Origin: Clostridia bacterium
Lineage (GTDB): Bacteria > Bacillota > Clostridia > CAKSNL01 > HGM11501
Assembly (NCBI GenBank): GCA_045588365.1
Contig: JAZNEB010000013.1
Span: 128,803-192,802 of the forward strand
Direction of reading: 5' to 3'
Length of the DNA: 64,000 nucleotides
The notes under the pieces are model-generated. The model saw only the letters and a program-made list of their open reading frames with translations, had not been told where the DNA came from and searched no databases. The translations under genes and the position numbers were made by a program. Within the stretch, counting starts at the first letter, position 1, and every line of letters begins with the position of its first letter. Positions 12,287-24,688 of this stretch are shown in pieces.

Positions 12287-12315
12287 TTGACAAAAAAACA
12301 ACAATGTGATAAAAT
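12287..12315 (+). promoter_or_regulatory. Sigma-A-type promoter of the 13-gene dehydrogenase-hdr-flx-frd-fum operon
   Basis: -35 TTGACA (12287-12292), 17-nt spacer, extended -10 TGaTAAAAT (12307-12315). Confidence 0.55.
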
Positions 12316-12379
12316 AAAATAGTATGAATTTGCAGAAAAACAGAGAAAAAGTAATAAAAATATTGAAAGGAATAAAGCT

Positions 12380-13327
12380 ATGAGCAGAAAAATTACCATT
12401 ATCGGAGCGGGAAGTGTAGGTGCTACAATAGCCTATACACTTTCTATGGAAGACTTAGCAAATGAAATTGTTTTGATTGATGTAAACAAGCAAAAGGCAG
12501 AGGGCGAGGTTATGGACATTATCCAGGGAACCTGCTTCCGTGATCCTATTTCCGTTATAACGGGAGATTATGAAGATGCAAAGGATTCCGACATCGTAAT
12601 AATTACCTCTGGAATAGCGAGACAGCCCGGACAGACACGCCTTGAGCTTACACAGACAAATGTGGATATCATAAAAGAAATCACTCCCAAAATTGTAAAG
12701 GTTGCTCCCAAGGCTTTATATGTTGTGGTAAGTAACCCTGTTGATATAATTACCTATGTGTTCACTAAAATTTCGGGTCTTCCCGAAAATCAGATTATAG
12801 GCTCGGGAACCTTACTTGATACTGCAAGACTTCGTTTTGCTCTTTCTGAGCACTTTAATATAGCACAGAAAAACATTCACGCCTATGTTTTCGGCGAGCA
12901 CGGAGATTCTTCCTTTGTACCTTGGTCCTGCACTCAGATATCTGGTGCTATGCTGGATGAATACATCGAGGTTATGACCGAGGCAGGAAGATATAAGGGA
13001 GAGCTTGACAGAGATGCTATGGAGGAGTACGTTCATACATCAGGCGGAGAAATTATAAAATATAAGGGCGCAACCTACTATGCAGTATCTGTGTCCGTAT
13101 GCCGTCTTTGCAGAATGCTTTTGTCTGCATATGATTCCATAAACACCGTATCTTCCATGATGCACGGAGAATACGGACTTTCCGACATTTGCCTGAGCAC
13201 ATTAAGTATAATCGGCCCTGAGGGCGTTAGGGGCAAGATGCCTGTACGACTTACCAATGAAGAACTTGCAAAGCTTCACGAAAGTGCCGAGAAATTAAGA
13301 GAGACCATGAGACATATTAAATTGTAA
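12380..13327 (+). CDS. LDH/MDH-family 2-hydroxyacid dehydrogenase (LDH-type scaffold with Arg at the Q102 specificity position; possibly malate dehydrogenase)
   Basis: IIGAGSVGATIAY Rossmann fold, LDTARLRF (R171) and GEHGDS (H195). The SGIARQPGQTRLEL loop aligns with LDH GANQKPGETRLDL and puts Arg81 at position 102. Confidence 0.8.
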   Translation: MSRKITIIGAGSVGATIAYTLSMEDLANEIVLIDVNKQKAEGEVMDIIQGTCFRDPISVITGDYEDAKDSDIVIITSGIARQPGQTRLELTQTNVDIIKEITPKIVKVAPKALYVVVSNPVDIITYVFTKISGLPENQIIGSGTLLDTARLRFALSEHFNIAQKNIHAYVFGEHGDSSFVPWSCTQISGAMLDEYIEVMTEAGRYKGELDRDAMEEYVHTSGGEIIKYKGATYYAVSVSVCRLCRMLLSAYDSINTVSSMMHGEYGLSDICLSTLSIIGPEGVRGKMPVRLTNEELAKLHESAEKLRETMRHIKL

Positions 13328-13339
13328 GGAAGTGTGAAT

Positions 13340-14134
13340 ATGAATTTCAGTTATTATCCCGGCTGCACCCTTAAAACAAAAGCCAAAGAGCTTGATGTAT
13401 ATGCGAAAAAGTGTGCAGAAGTTCTGGGCTTTACATTAAATGAAATAGACAACTGGCAGTGCTGCGGCGGAGTTTATCCTTTGGGTAAGGATGAAATCGC
13501 AACAAAGCTTTCATCTGTTCGTGTCCTTAATTACGCAAAGGAAAATGGGGAGGATCTTGTTACTGTTTGTTCTGCCTGCCATCATGTAATAAAAAGAGTA
13601 AACGACGATATGAAAAACGATGCTGATATAGCAAAAAAGGCAAATAACTATTTAAGTCTTGACGAGCCTTATAATGGAGAAGCCAATGTTTTTCATTACC
13701 TTGAGGTTTTAAGGGACAAAATTGGTTTTGACAATCTTAAGAAGGCAGTTAAAAATCCTCTTACGGGAAAAAAGATTGGTGCATATTACGGATGCCTCTT
13801 GCTTCGACCCGGAAAGGTTATGGCTTTTGACGATCCTGAAAATCCCACTGTTTTTGAGGACTTCATAAAGGCTCTGGGTGCCGAGGCGGTAGTTTATCCC
13901 TACAGAAACGAATGCTGCGGCGGATATATCCCCGTAAAGGACGATGCTACAAGTGAAAAGATGTGCAAAAAAATCAGCGAAAGCGCAAAGGGCTTTTCAT
14001 GTGATATGTTAATCACTGCTTGTCCCTTATGTATGTATAACTTAAGGAAAAAGGGCATAGATATTCCTGTTTACTATTTTACAGAGCTTTTGGCAGAAGC
14101 TTTGGGAGTAAAGGAGGAAAACATAAATGGATAA
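13340..14134 (+). CDS. hdrB: Heterodisulfide reductase subunit B-like protein (two CCG domains)
   Basis: YYPGC start and two CCG motifs (NWQCCGG, NECCGG), each followed by downstream CxxC-type cysteines. ATG 13340 follows AAGGAAG. Confidence 0.75.
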   Translation: MNFSYYPGCTLKTKAKELDVYAKKCAEVLGFTLNEIDNWQCCGGVYPLGKDEIATKLSSVRVLNYAKENGEDLVTVCSACHHVIKRVNDDMKNDADIAKKANNYLSLDEPYNGEANVFHYLEVLRDKIGFDNLKKAVKNPLTGKKIGAYYGCLLLRPGKVMAFDDPENPTVFEDFIKALGAEAVVYPYRNECCGGYIPVKDDATSEKMCKKISESAKGFSCDMLITACPLCMYNLRKKGIDIPVYYFTELLAEALGVKEENING

Positions 14135-23232: not shown

Positions 23233-23247
23233 TAAAGGAGAAACACT

Positions 23248-24090
23248 ATGCGTGAAATAAATGTTGCTCTTATAACGGATGTGGTTGAAAAGCTCTGTAT
23301 TGAAGCAAATAATCATCTTCCCTCCGACGTAAAATGTGCCATCAAAAAGTGCAGAAGTGAGGAAGACGGAGAAATTGCAAAGGGCATTTTGGATAACATC
23401 ATCGAAAATTTTGACATAGCAGATGCAGAAGATGTTCCTGTTTGTCAGGATACAGGTATGGCTTGTGTATTTCTGGAAATCGGTCAGGATGTACACCTTA
23501 CGGGCGGCGACTTAAGGGAAGCCGTTGACGAGGGTGTAAGACGAGGCTACGACAAGGGCTATTTAAGAAAGTCCGTTGTGGCTGACCCCGTGAGACGAGG
23601 TAATACCGGAGATAACACTCCTGCTATGTTATATACCGAAATCGTTCCCGGTGAAAATGTAAAAATCACTGTTGGTCCCAAGGGATTCGGCAGTGAAAAC
23701 ATGAGCATGATAAGAATGTTCAAGCCTTCAGCAGGTCTTCAGGGTATCAAGGACTTTATCCTGGAGGTTGTTGAAACCGCAGGCCCAAATCCCTGCCCTC
23801 CCATGGTAATCGGTGTTGGTATCGGCGGAACCTTTGATAAGTGTGCACTTTTAGCAAAGAAAGCTTTGATGAGAAGCTTAGATTCTGAAAATCCCGATCC
23901 TTACTATGCCGACCTTGAAAAGGAAATGCTCGAAAAGGTTAACAAGCTTGGTATAGGTCCTCAGGGCTTTGGTGGAAAGACCACAGCCATCGGCCTTAAT
24001 ATTGAAACTCTGCCCACACACATTGCGGGAATGCCCTGTGCAGTAAATATAAACTGCCATGTAACCCGTCATAAGTCGGAGGTGATATAA
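23248..24090 (+). CDS. Class I Fe-S hydro-lyase alpha subunit (fumarate hydratase; tartrate dehydratase TtdA-type not excluded)
   Basis: VCQDTGMA motif and the N-terminal-domain layout of two-subunit class I fumarases. Confidence 0.8.
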   Translation: MREINVALITDVVEKLCIEANNHLPSDVKCAIKKCRSEEDGEIAKGILDNIIENFDIADAEDVPVCQDTGMACVFLEIGQDVHLTGGDLREAVDEGVRRGYDKGYLRKSVVADPVRRGNTGDNTPAMLYTEIVPGENVKITVGPKGFGSENMSMIRMFKPSAGLQGIKDFILEVVETAGPNPCPPMVIGVGIGGTFDKCALLAKKALMRSLDSENPDPYYADLEKEMLEKVNKLGIGPQGFGGKTTAIGLNIETLPTHIAGMPCAVNINCHVTRHKSEVI

Positions 24091-24647
24091 TGGAAAAGCA
24101 CATTACTCTTCCTTTAACAAAGGAGCTTGCAAAAACATTAAAAGCAGGGGACAAGGTTTATCTTACAGGAACCATTTATACCTCCCGTGATGCAGGACAT
24201 AAAAGAATGTGCGAAGCACTGGAAAGAGGGGAGAGCCTTCCCTTTGACCCCACCGATGCCACAATCTATTATGTAGGTCCCACTCCTGCAAAGCCAGGAA
24301 AGGTAATCGGCTCTGCAGGTCCTACCACCAGCGGAAGAATGGACGCTTATGCTCCTACAATGATGAAGGTTGGAGCAAGAGGTATGATAGGAAAGGGAGC
24401 TCGTCTTCCCGAAGTAATAGAGGCTATGAAGGAAAATTCAGGCGTTTACTTCGGTGCTATCGGCGGAGCAGGTGCACTTTTAGCCAAGTGCATTAAAAAG
24501 TGCGAGCTTATCGCATATGAAGACCTTGGTGCAGAAGCACTCCGTAAGCTCTATGTTGAAGATATGCCTCTGGTTGTAATTATCGATTCTGAGGGCAATA
24601 ACTTATACGAGCTTGGCAGAAAAGAATATCTGGAAAACAGAAAATAA
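24090..24647 (+). CDS. Class I Fe-S hydro-lyase beta subunit (fumarate hydratase beta)
   Basis: GTIYTSRDAGHKR and GPTTSGRMD motifs. The start overlaps the alpha stop (TAATG). Confidence 0.8.
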   Translation: MEKHITLPLTKELAKTLKAGDKVYLTGTIYTSRDAGHKRMCEALERGESLPFDPTDATIYYVGPTPAKPGKVIGSAGPTTSGRMDAYAPTMMKVGARGMIGKGARLPEVIEAMKENSGVYFGAIGGAGALLAKCIKKCELIAYEDLGAEALRKLYVEDMPLVVIIDSEGNNLYELGRKEYLENRK

Positions 24648-24688
24648 AAAAATGCAGACATACGGCGGTATGTCTGCATTTTTTTTGT
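24645..24688 (+). terminator. Intrinsic terminator ending the 13-gene operon
   Basis: atgcagacata cggcgg tatgtctgcat followed by T8. Confidence 0.8.

What the first reader, a model, noticed from the sequence alone, without database searches (positions are those of the whole stretch)
12287..24688. 13-gene operon joining HdrABC + FlxABCD-like modules to a soluble fumarate reductase, fumarase, an MDH-like dehydrogenase and a dicarboxylate-type transporter
Seen in the sequence: there is one promoter (12287-12315) and one strong terminator (24645-24688). The 13 ORFs between them have gaps of 15 nt or less, or overlapping stops and starts, and I saw no internal terminator. The order is LDH/MDH-family dehydrogenase, hdrB, hdrC, hdrA, mvhD/flxD-like, flxC-like, flxB-like (AsrA-like), flxA-like (AsrB/PyrK-like NAD(P)H-FAD-2Fe2S), frdB-like, frdA-like, AAEx transporter, fumarase alpha, fumarase beta. 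Established knowledge: FlxABCD-HdrABC is a proposed NADH-dependent flavin-based electron-bifurcating complex, described in Desulfovibrio with DsrC as the proposed thiol/disulfide partner. HdrABC-MvhAGD bifurcates in methanogens, and methanogens also have a thiol:fumarate reductase (TfrAB) whose B subunit carries HdrB-type CCG domains. Inference: here the Flx-Hdr machinery is wired at the operon level to the reductive branch oxaloacetate to malate to fumarate to succinate. Fumarate (high potential) could therefore be the exergonic acceptor that drives ferredoxin reduction from NAD(P)H, giving a cytoplasmic, anchorless, possibly bifurcating fumarate reductase supercomplex. To my knowledge this coupling has not been characterised biochemically.
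Basis: partly seen in the sequence, partly recalled or inferred. Interest (0 to 1): 0.85.

Follow-up and report, generated by a model that had tools for sequence, protein, structure and literature searches.

The report
Succinate operon with Hdr-Flx fumarate reductase
A gut Clostridia genome carries one 13-gene operon that turns oxaloacetate into succinate using a soluble fumarate reductase wired to an NADH-oxidising, probably ferredoxin-reducing Hdr-Flx module; the same design is conserved in many gut species and has been proposed, but never tested biochemically, in two other bacteria.

Summary
Thirteen co-directional genes (12380-24647) have gaps of at most 15 nt. A sigma-70-like promoter precedes them and a strong terminator follows. 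Identities hold: an LDH-family dehydrogenase with Arg at the LDH Gln102 position (so probably malate dehydrogenase), HdrB/C/A, FlxD/C/B/A, FrdB-like, FrdA-like, an AAEx transporter and two-subunit class I fumarase.

Comparative evidence supports the interpretation. In 57 of 57 related loci with enough flank, hdrBCA-flxDCBA-frdBA is collinear. Of 43 fully flanked loci, 42 carry a fumarase: class I fumAB in 25, unrelated class II fumC in 17. This displacement points to fumarate as the substrate. FrdA keeps every dicarboxylate-binding and catalytic residue and lacks the covalent-FAD histidine, which favours reduction. All ten HdrB cluster cysteines are invariant.

The most likely mechanism is NADH to FlxABCD to HdrA flavin, bifurcating to ferredoxin and, via HdrC/HdrB and FrdB, to fumarate.

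The idea is not new. It was proposed for the Pseudoclostridium thermosuccinogenes "succinate operon" (2019-2020) and for Endoriftia rTCA clusters (2019, 2024). I found no biochemical characterisation. Verdict: a new member of a known but untested kind, notable for its breadth in gut and rumen Clostridia.

The parts
12287..12315 (+). Sigma-70-like promoter (TTGACA-17-TAAAAT, extended -10 TG)
   Evidence: 11 of 12 matches. It lies between the 6S RNA terminator (12184-12215) and the first start codon. It is a consensus match only; no transcript data.
12380..13327 (+). LDH-family NAD-dependent dehydrogenase, predicted malate dehydrogenase (LDH-like MDH)
   Evidence: Ldh_1_N and Ldh_1_C domains. 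NCBIfam scores L-LDH 348 bits and MDH 276 bits. Residue 81 is Arg in 'GIARQPGQTR', aligned to Gln in the LDH 4M1Q and to Arg in 1Y6J. This Arg is present in 44/44 cluster-linked homologues.
13340..14134 (+). HdrB-like subunit with two CCG domains (non-cubane [4Fe-4S] sites)
   Evidence: Pfam CCG x2. Best NCBIfam hits are SdhE and HdrB. Matches methanogen HdrB chains 8RVV_B and 5ODC_B. All 10 motif cysteines are invariant in 57/57 relatives, while the 3 other cysteines vary. ATG at 13340 with an AAGGAAG ribosome-binding site.
14127..14510 (+). HdrC-like 2x[4Fe-4S] subunit
   Evidence: Fer4_8 and Fer4_17 domains. NCBIfam HdrC hits at 1.6e-16. Two CxxCxxCxxxCP motifs.
14515..16503 (+). HdrA, the FAD and multi-[4Fe-4S] flavoprotein that bifurcates in methanogen Hdr complexes
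   Evidence: Matches 5ODC_A end to end at E = 1.2e-206. NCBIfam HdrA2 788 bits. ATG at 14515 with an AGGAGG ribosome-binding site; the longest ORF starts at GTG 14485.
16494..16934 (+). FlxD / MvhD-like [2Fe-2S] adaptor
   Evidence: Pfam FlpD 2.3e-54. VhuD and the HdrA2 C-terminal region match.
16922..17887 (+). FlxC-like iron-sulfur subunit
   Evidence: 2x[4Fe-4S] domain at residues 204-275. The C-terminal part resembles FdhB of the Fdh-Hdr supercomplexes 7BKB_E, 8RVU_E and 9T1S_M.
17892..18920 (+). FlxB-like iron-sulfur subunit (AsrA / sulfhydrogenase beta type)
   Evidence: Fer4_22. NCBIfam ShyB, HydB and AsrA. PDB 9NEZ_B at 4.6e-45.
18920..19774 (+). FlxA-like NAD(P)H:FAD [2Fe-2S] reductase, the electron entry point
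   Evidence: FAD_binding_6, NAD_binding_1 and DHODB_Fe-S_bind domains. NCBIfam HydG, AsrB and PyrK. PDB 9NEZ_C at 2.9e-57.
19790..20464 (+). FrdB-like iron-sulfur subunit: [2Fe-2S] plus 2x[4Fe-4S], with no CCG domain
   Evidence: Fer2_4 and Fer4_7 domains. The N-terminus matches TfrB residues 18-88. The best PDB hit of the family profile is the E. coli FrdB [2Fe-2S] domain, 1KF6_B, 5e-9. Fifteen cysteines are invariant in 76-77 relatives. It occurs fused to FrdA in P0123.
20476..22068 (+). FrdA-like soluble fumarate reductase flavoprotein, with a ~90-aa N-terminal extension and no Succ_DH_flav_C domain
   Evidence: FAD_binding_2 at 3.4e-68. The best NCBIfam hit is TfrA, 340 bits, below cut-off. 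H318/T320/E335/R338/H430/R465 align with the SdhA/FrdA active-site positions and are invariant in 80/80 loci; N127 replaces the covalent-FAD His in 80/80. AF2 model pLDDT 88; the top fold hit is E. coli FrdA 1KF6_A.
22078..23232 (+). AAEx-family (Asp-Al_Ex x2) transporter, a candidate succinate exporter or C4-dicarboxylate exchanger
   Evidence: Pfam Asp-Al_Ex 4.4e-76, two domains. NCBIfam AspT/YidE/YbjL duplication domain. Present in 30/43 related clusters, at variable positions.
23248..24090 (+). Class I (Fe-S) fumarate hydratase, alpha subunit
   Evidence: Pfam Fumerase 9e-118. NCBIfam PRK06246 416 bits, above the 276-bit cut-off.
24090..24647 (+). Class I fumarate hydratase, beta subunit
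   Evidence: Pfam Fumerase_C 1.4e-58. NCBIfam PRK06842 298 bits, above the 238-bit cut-off.
24646..24685 (.). Bidirectional intrinsic terminator that closes the operon
   Evidence: 18-bp stem with an A-run and a T-run. dG -24.3 kcal/mol, z = -7.4, and 0 of 200 shuffles fold as well.

Best explanation
This is a single 'succinate operon' of a gut or rumen Clostridia bacterium. It encodes the whole reductive branch: oxaloacetate to malate (LDH-like MDH), malate to fumarate (class I fumarase), fumarate to succinate, and export (AAEx transporter). The fumarate-reducing step is carried out by a cytoplasmic, quinone-independent nine-subunit assembly, FrdBA-HdrABC-FlxABCD.

Proposed electron path (inferred). 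NAD(P)H is oxidised at FlxA (FAD, 2Fe-2S). Electrons pass through the FlxB and FlxC iron-sulfur clusters and FlxD (MvhD-type 2Fe-2S) to the HdrA FAD. There the electron pair is split. One electron goes uphill through the HdrA ferredoxin-domain clusters to ferredoxin. The other goes downhill through HdrC, the HdrB non-cubane clusters and the FrdB [2Fe-2S]/[4Fe-4S] clusters to the non-covalent FAD of FrdA and on to fumarate. Overall: 2 NADH + fumarate + 2 Fd(ox) gives 2 NAD+ + succinate + 2 Fd(red).

Reduced ferredoxin could then be used by Rnf or hydrogenases. That would give the energetic equivalent of fumarate respiration without quinones.

Shown here: gene identities, operon structure, conserved synteny, and conserved catalytic and cluster residues. 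Inferred: physical complex formation, bifurcation, the donor (NADH or NADPH), and the transporter's substrate.
For: Operon anatomy.

Subunit identities.

Synteny: hdrB-hdrC-hdrA-flxD-flxC-flxB-flxA-frdB-frdA is collinear in 57/57 relatives with at least 7.4 kb upstream (FrdA 71-95% identical). These span Oscillospiraceae, Acutalibacteraceae, Lachnospiraceae, Christensenellaceae and Anaerovoracaceae.

Fumarate as substrate: 42/43 fully flanked clusters carry a fumarase, and it is either class I fumAB (25) or the unrelated class II fumC (17), placed at a different position in the cluster. The linkage is therefore functional rather than inherited.

FrdA: the dicarboxylate-site residues H318, T320, E335, R338, H430 and R465 are invariant, and Asn replaces the covalent-FAD His. 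From established knowledge, non-covalent FAD enzymes of this family reduce fumarate but oxidise succinate poorly. The fold is closest to E. coli FrdA.

MDH: Arg at the LDH Gln102 position in 44/44 homologues. The Q102R switch is established knowledge (Wilks et al. 1988).

HdrA is a full-length homologue of the bifurcating subunit of MvhAGD-HdrABC.

All ten HdrB CCG cysteines are invariant while the other cysteines drift.

Rosetta-stone links: FrdB is fused to FrdA in P0123. Methanogen TfrB matches, in this order, FrdB (positions 18-88), HdrC (132-220) and HdrB (379-476) of this operon.

Thermodynamics (established values): NADH about -320 mV, fumarate about +30 mV, ferredoxin about -450 mV. 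The mean acceptor potential lies above that of NADH.

Literature: the homologous P. thermosuccinogenes operon is co-regulated, and its physiology was judged consistent with ferredoxin-coupled fumarate reduction (PMC7282089).
Against: There is no biochemical or structural evidence for any Flx-Hdr-Frd complex. No Flx-Hdr or Tfr structure appears in the PDB copy searched.

FrdBA pairs of the same family occur without Hdr or Flx: alone in L084-L086, and with a NuoF-like NADH module in L082. FrdBA therefore does not need Hdr to work, and simple NADH-linked variants probably exist.

HdrB keeps a complete disulfide-reductase-type active site, which is unexplained if it acts only as a wire.

No ferredoxin or Rnf genes lie in the window.

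Single-transcript status is inferred from spacing only. Only the best 80 of at least 596 matching genome stretches were inspected.
Confidence: 0.6

Rival explanations
1. Non-bifurcating NADH:fumarate oxidoreductase. Flx and Hdr subunits serve only as a long iron-sulfur wire from NAD(P)H to FrdBA, and no ferredoxin is reduced. This would resemble the multi-subunit soluble NADH-dependent fumarate reductase of Hydrogenobacter thermophilus.
For: A relative (L082, FrdA 46% identical) pairs frdBA with just a NuoF-like NADH-binding subunit. A five-subunit irreversible NADH-dependent fumarate reductase is characterised in H. thermophilus (PMC13147460). Bifurcation has not been shown directly for any purified Flx-Hdr enzyme in the papers read.
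Against: Seven extra conserved subunits are kept in 57/57 loci. They include a full-length HdrA with both ferredoxin-type domains (E = 1e-206 to 5ODC_A) and MvhD. That is an expensive way to do what one NuoF-like subunit appears to do elsewhere. It would also waste about 350 mV in energy-limited fermenters.
Confidence: 0.2
2. Thiol-mediated coupling. Flx-Hdr bifurcates onto a disulfide (a DsrC-like protein or a low-molecular-weight heterodisulfide) at HdrB. The resulting thiols are re-oxidised to reduce fumarate, as in methanogen thiol:fumarate reductase.
For: HdrB retains all ten CCG cysteines of the disulfide-reducing site in 57/57 loci. FrdA's best family match is TfrA. The Endoriftia model allows a route through a DsrC-like protein (PMC11636981).
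Against: FrdB has no CCG domain, so FrdBA has no recognisable thiol-oxidising site. The only CCG protein is HdrB itself. No DsrC-like or thiol-cofactor gene lies in the operon or in the conserved neighbourhood. CCG proteins also act as plain electron-transfer or quinone modules in other enzymes, for example the SdhE hit.
Confidence: 0.12
3. The FrdA-like flavoprotein acts on another substrate (L-aspartate, or another enoate such as urocanate or acrylate), or the cluster is a juxtaposition of independent units.
For: All NCBIfam matches of FrdA fall below the family cut-offs, and NadB models score nearly as well as FrdA/SdhA models. Public annotation is only 'FAD-dependent oxidoreductase'. The AAEx family includes aspartate:alanine antiporters.
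Against: Fumarase of either class is retained in 42/43 clusters, and an Arg102-type MDH in 35/43. The full set of fumarate-site residues is invariant. FrdA has an obligatory FrdB-type partner, fused to it in P0123, unlike the free-standing NadB or UrdA. The nearest folds are FrdA and SdhA. Gaps are at most 15 nt and there is no internal terminator.
Confidence: 0.05

Closest known systems
'Succinate operon' of Pseudoclostridium (Hungateiclostridium) thermosuccinogenes: fumarate hydratase + Flx-Hdr + fumarate reductase + putative transporter (PMC7282089; Koendjbiharie & van Kranenburg 2019 preprint, cited there)
   Same: It has the same building blocks in one operon: seven Flx-Hdr genes followed by two fumarate-reductase genes and a putative succinate transporter, plus a fumarase. 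The same hypothesis was made, namely fumarate reduction coupled to ferredoxin reduction. That operon is co-regulated in RNA-seq.
   Different: The window's operon also carries an MDH gene and a two-subunit fumarase at the 3' end, and its transporter is identifiable as AAEx. The host is a mesophilic gut or rumen Clostridia MAG. I could not align the two clusters directly because the P. thermosuccinogenes sequence was not retrieved.
tfrAB interspersed with flxABCD-hdrABC and korABCD in the rTCA clusters of Ca. Endoriftia persephone and Thioflavicoccus mobilis (PMC6315080, PMC11636981, PMC13147460)
   Same: An AB-type soluble fumarate reductase is co-located with Flx-Hdr and proposed to use NADH to reduce fumarate and ferredoxin together. 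A relative found here, L081 (FrdA 58% identical), has korDABC-hdrA-mvhD-hdrC-hdrB-frdB-frdA.
   Different: Those clusters serve autotrophic CO2 fixation in Gammaproteobacteria and include 2-oxoglutarate:ferredoxin oxidoreductase. This operon has MDH, fumarase and an exporter, which suggests fermentative succinate formation.
FlxABCD-HdrABC of Desulfovibrio vulgaris (Ramos et al. 2015; summarised in PMC10084766)
   Same: The subunit set is the same: FlxA (NAD(P)H/FAD/2Fe-2S), FlxB and FlxC iron-sulfur proteins related to Pyrococcus sulfhydrogenase subunits, an MvhD-like FlxD, and HdrABC.
   Different: In Desulfovibrio the cluster sits next to adh, and the proposed high-potential acceptor is the DsrC disulfide. 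Here it sits next to frdBA, with fumarate as the proposed acceptor. The gene order is hdrBCA-flxDCBA.
Methanogen thiol:fumarate reductase TfrAB
   Same: TfrA is the best-scoring curated family for FrdA. TfrB unites in one chain segments that match FrdB, HdrC and HdrB of this operon.
   Different: Tfr uses CoM-SH and CoB-SH as donor and has no HdrA, MvhD or Flx. Here the modules are separate proteins, FrdA lacks the C-terminal roughly 120 residues of the TfrA model (match covers 6-426 of 546), and it scores far below the TfrA cut-off (340 against 718 bits).
MvhAGD-HdrABC and Fdh-MvhD-HdrABC of methanogens (PDB 5ODC, 7BKB, 8RVU)
   Same: HdrA, HdrB, HdrC and MvhD are homologous end to end. The FlxC C-terminus resembles FdhB, which feeds MvhD and HdrA in the formate-dependent complexes.
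   Different: The donor module is NAD(P)H-linked Flx rather than a hydrogenase or formate dehydrogenase. The proposed acceptor is fumarate through FrdBA rather than CoM-S-S-CoB.
Five-subunit soluble NADH-dependent fumarate reductase of Hydrogenobacter thermophilus (Miura et al. 2008, as described in PMC13147460)
   Same: It is a cytoplasmic, quinone-independent, irreversible fumarate reductase built on FrdA/FrdB-type subunits plus extra electron-input subunits.
   Different: It has five subunits and is described as a plain NADH:fumarate reductase with no ferredoxin reduction reported. I could not read the primary paper, and its subunit homologies were not tested here.

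Membership tests
FlxABCD-HdrABC (NADH dehydrogenase / heterodisulfide reductase-like complex) | HdrA (FAD plus multiple 4Fe-4S), HdrB (two CCG domains) and HdrC (2x4Fe-4S) encoded together | tested here: met
   HdrA matches 5ODC_A at 1e-206. HdrB has all 10 CCG cysteines.
FlxABCD-HdrABC (NADH dehydrogenase / heterodisulfide reductase-like complex) | FlxA with NAD(P)H, FAD and 2Fe-2S domains; FlxB and FlxC iron-sulfur proteins related to Pyrococcus sulfhydrogenase subunits; MvhD-like FlxD; no hydrogenase catalytic subunit | tested here: met
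   The family is described in PMC10084766. No hydrogenase large subunit lies in the cluster.
FlxABCD-HdrABC (NADH dehydrogenase / heterodisulfide reductase-like complex) | NADH-dependent reduction of ferredoxin coupled to a high-potential acceptor (electron bifurcation) | not testable with these tools
   This needs anaerobic enzymology.
Fumarate reductase / succinate dehydrogenase flavoprotein (FrdA/SdhA superfamily) | FAD_binding_2 fold with the His-Pro-Thr motif, catalytic Arg, second His and second Arg that bind and protonate the C4-dicarboxylate | tested here: met
   H318-P-T320, R338, H430 and R465 align with the E. coli SdhA positions. They are invariant in A1 and in 80/80 loci. The fold is closest to 1KF6_A.
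Fumarate reductase / succinate dehydrogenase flavoprotein (FrdA/SdhA superfamily) | Covalent 8-alpha-histidyl FAD and the C-terminal Succ_DH_flav_C domain of respiratory complex II enzymes | tested here: not met
   Asn127 replaces the His. There is no PF02910 hit, and the protein ends about 60 residues after the FAD domain. It is not a canonical complex II flavoprotein but a distinct soluble subfamily with a ~90-aa N-terminal extension.
Thiol:fumarate reductase TfrAB | TfrA-type flavoprotein scoring above the curated cut-off, and a B subunit carrying C-terminal CCG domains | tested here: not met
   TfrA scores 340 bits against a 718-bit cut-off. FrdB has no CCG domain. The CCG domains are on a separate HdrB protein.
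LDH-like malate dehydrogenase | LDH/MDH fold with Arg instead of Gln at the substrate-specificity position (LDH residue 102) | tested here: met
   Arg81 in 'GIARQPGQTR' aligns to Gln of the LDH 4M1Q and to Arg of 1Y6J. It is Arg in 44/44 homologues. Caveat: the NCBIfam L-LDH models score above their cut-offs and the MDH model scores just below its own. Activity was not assayed.
Class I (Fe-S) two-subunit fumarate hydratase | Alpha (Fumerase) and beta (Fumerase_C) subunits scoring above curated cut-offs | tested here: met
   PRK06246 scores 416 bits (cut-off 276) and PRK06842 scores 298 bits (cut-off 238). Tartrate dehydratase models score much lower.
AAEx (aspartate:alanine exchanger, TC 2.A.81) transporters | Two Asp-Al_Ex membrane domains | tested here: met
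   The substrate (succinate export or dicarboxylate exchange) is inferred from context only. The protein lacks the central domains of the 550-aa AspT, YidE and YbjL proteins, since it is 384 aa and the two matches are to the terminal parts.

The most novel reading that the evidence does not exclude
Hundreds of quinone-lacking gut and rumen Clostridia species use a nine-subunit FrdBA-HdrABC-FlxABCD complex as a flavin-based electron-bifurcating fumarate reductase. In this complex the HdrB non-cubane clusters serve a non-thiol substrate branch. Together with Rnf or hydrogenases it would provide quinone-free 'fumarate respiration', an unrecognised major route to succinate, and a ferredoxin and H2 source in gut ecosystems.
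Probability: 0.5. Interest if true: 0.75.

Novelty: new member of a known kind. Interest (0 to 1): 0.55.

Why it matters
If the complex bifurcates, fumarate joins crotonyl-CoA, caffeyl-CoA and heterodisulfide as a high-potential acceptor that drives ferredoxin reduction from NADH. That would explain how menaquinone-free Clostridia conserve energy from succinate formation.

The cluster is present in at least several dozen, and probably hundreds, of gut and rumen species. These include cultured Lachnospiraceae such as Fusicatenibacter faecihominis. It is therefore relevant to succinate and H2 budgets in the gut and rumen.

The flavoprotein (the only subunit whose public names I saw) is annotated only as a generic 'FAD-dependent oxidoreductase' or 'FAD-binding protein', so this pathway step may be missed in metabolic reconstructions.

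It also offers a tractable bacterial system for asking what HdrB-type CCG clusters do when no heterodisulfide is involved.

Tried and rejected
1. L-lactate dehydrogenase reading of gene 1. NCBIfam places it above the LDH cut-offs. I rejected this in favour of MDH because of the Arg at the Gln102 position and the fumarase and Frd context.

2. L-aspartate oxidase, urocanate reductase or flavocytochrome readings of FrdA. These models score lower or only partially. They lack the FrdB partnership and do not explain the fumarase linkage.

3. Internal terminators. The three strongest-looking + strand hairpins from the scan were folded, and none beats shuffled sequence.

4. A riboswitch or leader upstream. 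The Rfam scan of 11000-26000 found only a 6S RNA.

A profile search of the PDB was used instead.

6. Literature searches for a biochemical characterisation. The phrase 'bifurcating fumarate reductase', 'Flx-Hdr' with 'fumarate', papers citing the 2019 preprint, and Lachnospiraceae with Hdr and Frd all returned no experimental paper. The 2019 preprint and Miura et al. 2008 are not held.

7. Looking for Rnf, ferredoxin or PEP carboxykinase genes in the window. None was found among the ORFs scanned; ORFs beyond 56.9 kb and several shorter ones were not scanned.

8. Distant FrdA-like proteins at 49% identity or less and about 480 aa (P0133, P0142, P0157). They stand alone without FrdB or Hdr, so they were not counted as the same system.

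Full report
OBSERVATION

The region holds 13 co-directional ORFs from 12380 to 24647. With the longest ORFs the junctions run from -26 to +15 nt. Two starts are better placed at ATGs preceded by Shine-Dalgarno sequences: hdrB at 13340 and hdrA at 14515. After this correction every junction is an overlap or a gap of at most 15 nt.

The promoter-like site at 12287-12315 (TTGACA-17-TAAAAT with a TG extension) is one of the two best in the 17 kb scanned. Such sites are not enriched over shuffles (39 against 35 +/- 6), so it is plausible rather than proven.

The 3' hairpin at 24646-24685 has an 18-bp stem between A and T runs. Its dG is -24.3 kcal/mol with z = -7.4. The internal hairpins listed by the scan fold no better than shuffled sequence.

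A 6S RNA gene (11993-12177, 87 bits against a gathering score of 46) ends in its own terminator at 12184-12215, 70 nt before the operon promoter. The flanking genes are unrelated: a sugar-acid kinase and aldolase and a glycyl-radical enzyme upstream, and an RHS toxin followed by pyrH-frr-uppS-cdsA-dxr downstream. The unit is discrete.

WHAT THE GENES ARE

Hdr module:
- HdrA is homologous over its whole length to the bifurcating subunit of the methanogen MvhAGD-HdrABC complex (5ODC_A, E = 1e-206).
- HdrB has two complete CCG motifs and matches methanogen HdrB chains.
- HdrC has two ferredoxin-type motifs.

Flx module:
- FlxD is an MvhD/FlpD protein (2e-54).
- FlxA and FlxB match the gamma and beta subunits of Pyrococcus sulfhydrogenase I (9NEZ). 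That is how the Flx proteins are described in the literature (PMC10084766).
- The FlxC C-terminus resembles FdhB of the Fdh-Hdr supercomplexes.

Gene 1 scores as L-lactate dehydrogenase in NCBIfam (348 bits against a 339-bit cut-off), and the MDH model scores just below its cut-off (276 against 283). Its specificity position, however, is Arg ('GIARQPGQTR'). It aligns to Gln in a true LDH (4M1Q) and to Arg in 1Y6J. By the established Q102R rule it should prefer oxaloacetate.

FrdA (530 aa) has a FAD_binding_2 core at residues 91-471, a ~90-residue N-terminal extension and no Succ_DH_flav_C domain.
- Its best curated family is methanogen TfrA at 340 bits, far below the 718-bit cut-off. SdhA/FrdA and NadB models follow.
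- Aligned to E. coli SdhA, it keeps the H-P-T motif, the catalytic Arg, the second His and the second Arg. Asn sits at the covalent-FAD histidine position.
- An AlphaFold model (pLDDT 88, with the N-terminal extension confidently folded) is closest to E. coli FrdA (1KF6_A).

FrdB has a [2Fe-2S] motif and two CxxCxxCxxxC motifs. A profile of the family hits the E. coli FrdB [2Fe-2S] domain first. It has no CCG domain.

The fumarase subunits pass their curated cut-offs. The transporter has two Asp-Al_Ex domains.

COMPARATIVE EVIDENCE

The FrdA-like protein has thousands of close relatives in metagenomes. The few that carry a source name are called 'FAD-dependent oxidoreductase' or 'FAD-binding protein' from Clostridia, Acutalibacteraceae or Ruminococcaceae MAGs. 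The window's own contig is 222,685 bp long.

The best 80 were kept (FrdA 71-95% identical). They come from gut and rumen Oscillospiraceae, Acutalibacteraceae, Lachnospiraceae (Fusicatenibacter, Dorea, Blautia, Mediterraneibacter), Christensenellaceae and Anaerovoracaceae.

A tblastn census with the window's 13 proteins gave these results:
- All 57 loci with at least 7.4 kb upstream have hdrB-hdrC-hdrA-flxD-flxC-flxB-flxA-frdB-frdA in the same order and strand.
- Of 43 loci with full flanks, 42 have a fumarase, 35 have the MDH and 30 have an AAEx transporter.
- The fumarase is class I fumAB downstream of frdA in 25 loci. In 17 it is an unrelated class II FumC (Lyase_1 plus FumaraseC_C) inserted between mdh and hdrB.

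This non-orthologous displacement at a different position is the strongest in-silico argument that the enzyme's substrate is fumarate and that the linkage is selected.

Residue checks across the loci:
- FrdA H318, T320, E335, R338, H430, R465 and N127 are the same in 80/80.
- The MDH Arg is present in 44/44.
- The ten HdrB CCG cysteines are present in 57/57, while three non-motif cysteines vary.
- Fifteen FrdB cysteines are invariant.

BEYOND THE CLOSE FAMILY

Representatives clustered at 50% identity show only a handful of clusters with the N-terminal extension. Their contexts vary:
- A 58%-identical relative sits in korDABC-hdrA-mvhD-hdrC-hdrB-frdB-frdA (L081).
- A 46%-identical proteobacterial one sits in frdB-frdA-NuoF-like (L082).
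- One is a FrdB-FrdA fusion with no partners nearby (P0123 in L084).
- Two are bare frdAB pairs.
- Proteins of about 480 aa at 49% identity or less stand alone.

FrdBA is therefore the constant catalytic module, and the electron-input module is exchangeable.

Methanogen TfrB provides a second Rosetta-stone link. Its model matches this operon's FrdB (TfrB positions 18-88), HdrC (132-220) and HdrB (379-476), in that order.

MECHANISM

The best-supported model has four steps:
1. NAD(P)H is oxidised at FlxA.
2. Electrons move through FlxB, FlxC and FlxD to the HdrA flavin.
3. The flavin sends one electron to ferredoxin through the HdrA ferredoxin-like domains.
4. It sends the other through HdrC and HdrB to FrdB, then to the non-covalent FAD of FrdA, and on to fumarate.

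With textbook potentials (NADH -320 mV, fumarate/succinate +30 mV, ferredoxin about -450 mV) the coupled reaction is exergonic. The non-covalent flavin fits a reduction-only enzyme (established knowledge for this family). Reduced ferredoxin could feed Rnf or hydrogenases, neither of which lies in the parts of the window scanned. That would make the pathway a quinone-free equivalent of fumarate respiration.

All steps after gene identity are inferred.

The rivals are:
- A plain NADH:fumarate reductase. The NuoF-type relative and the H. thermophilus enzyme support this reading. The conserved retention of HdrA and MvhD argues against it.
- Thiol-mediated coupling. The intact HdrB site supports this reading. 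The absence of any CCG domain in FrdB and of any thiol-carrier gene argues against it.
- A different substrate or independent units. The context and the conserved residues argue against it.

COMPARISON WITH WHAT IS KNOWN

The hypothesis is already in the literature.
- Koendjbiharie and co-workers describe a 'succinate operon' in Pseudoclostridium thermosuccinogenes, with fumarate hydratase, seven Flx-Hdr genes, two fumarate-reductase genes and a putative transporter. They report about 4-fold co-regulation and cite their 2019 preprint proposing a bifurcating fumarate reductase (PMC7282089).
- Rubin-Blum et al. proposed the same for tfrAB interspersed with flxABCD-hdrABC and korABCD in Endoriftia and Thioflavicoccus (PMC6315080).
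- Mitchell et al. 2024 added co-expression evidence for most of that rTCA cluster, though they note tfrAB itself as an exception (PMC11636981).
- A 2026 survey still calls it a suggestion (PMC13147460).

Seven searches found no purification, assay or structure. The PDB copy holds no Flx-Hdr or Tfr complex.

This locus is a new member of a known but untested kind. This analysis adds several points:
- the breadth of the cluster in gut and rumen Clostridia
- the fumAB/fumC displacement
- the MDH-type Arg
- the FrdB-FrdA fusion
- the invariance of the HdrB CCG cysteines
- the modular exchange of donor modules around FrdBA

VERDICT

Interest 0.55.

Noticed in passing
window 11993-12177 (+), terminator 12184-12215: A 6S (SsrS) RNA gene (Rfam RF00013, 87 bits, full length) lies directly upstream of the operon, with its own strong bidirectional terminator (dG -20.4, z -5.3). 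The 192-aa ORF at 11668-12246 (-) overlaps it, has no Pfam hit and is probably spurious.
   Followed up: partly
window 25224-31259 (-); small ORF 24833-25267 (-): A 2011-aa RHS-repeat protein with a C-terminal Ntox35 toxin domain, which looks like a polymorphic toxin. The 144-aa ORF immediately downstream on the same strand is a candidate immunity gene.
   Followed up: no
window 24740-24796 (+): Three tandem copies of a ~20-nt unit (ACGTCCCCAAGTGGCTTGCC) lie between the operon terminator and the RHS-associated ORF. Zero matches are expected by chance. Function unknown.
   Followed up: partly
window 1-6000: A low-GC patch (31-37% against about 41% elsewhere) holds an IS3-type integrase-core fragment (1379-2059, -), an HTH_3 regulator (2271-2885, -), and a 169-aa protein combining a Phage_Mu_F fragment with a barnase-type ribonuclease domain (3029-3538, +). 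It is probably a mobile or toxin-related island.
   Followed up: no
window 5771-8362 (+): An 863-aa glycyl-radical enzyme (PFL-like plus Gly_radical). None of the neighbouring ORFs I scanned is an activase: the upstream ORF is a PPIase and the downstream one a class II aldolase.
   Followed up: no
L060:1470-2846 and 16 other loci (e.g. L049-L080): In a second clade of the same cluster, the class I fumAB genes are absent. A class II FumC sits between mdh and hdrB instead.
   Followed up: yes
L081:811-9771; L082:9366-12891; L084:5250-7433: More distant FrdBA pairs are attached to other modules. L081 has korDABC-hdrA-mvhD-hdrC-hdrB-frdBA, L082 has frdBA plus a NuoF-like NADH subunit, and L084 has a 727-aa FrdB-FrdA fusion standing alone.
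   Followed up: partly
window 10457-11413 (-): The KDPG/KHG aldolase homologue is 318 aa, but the Pfam Aldolase domain covers only residues 6-196. The roughly 120-residue C-terminal extension is unassigned.
   Followed up: no
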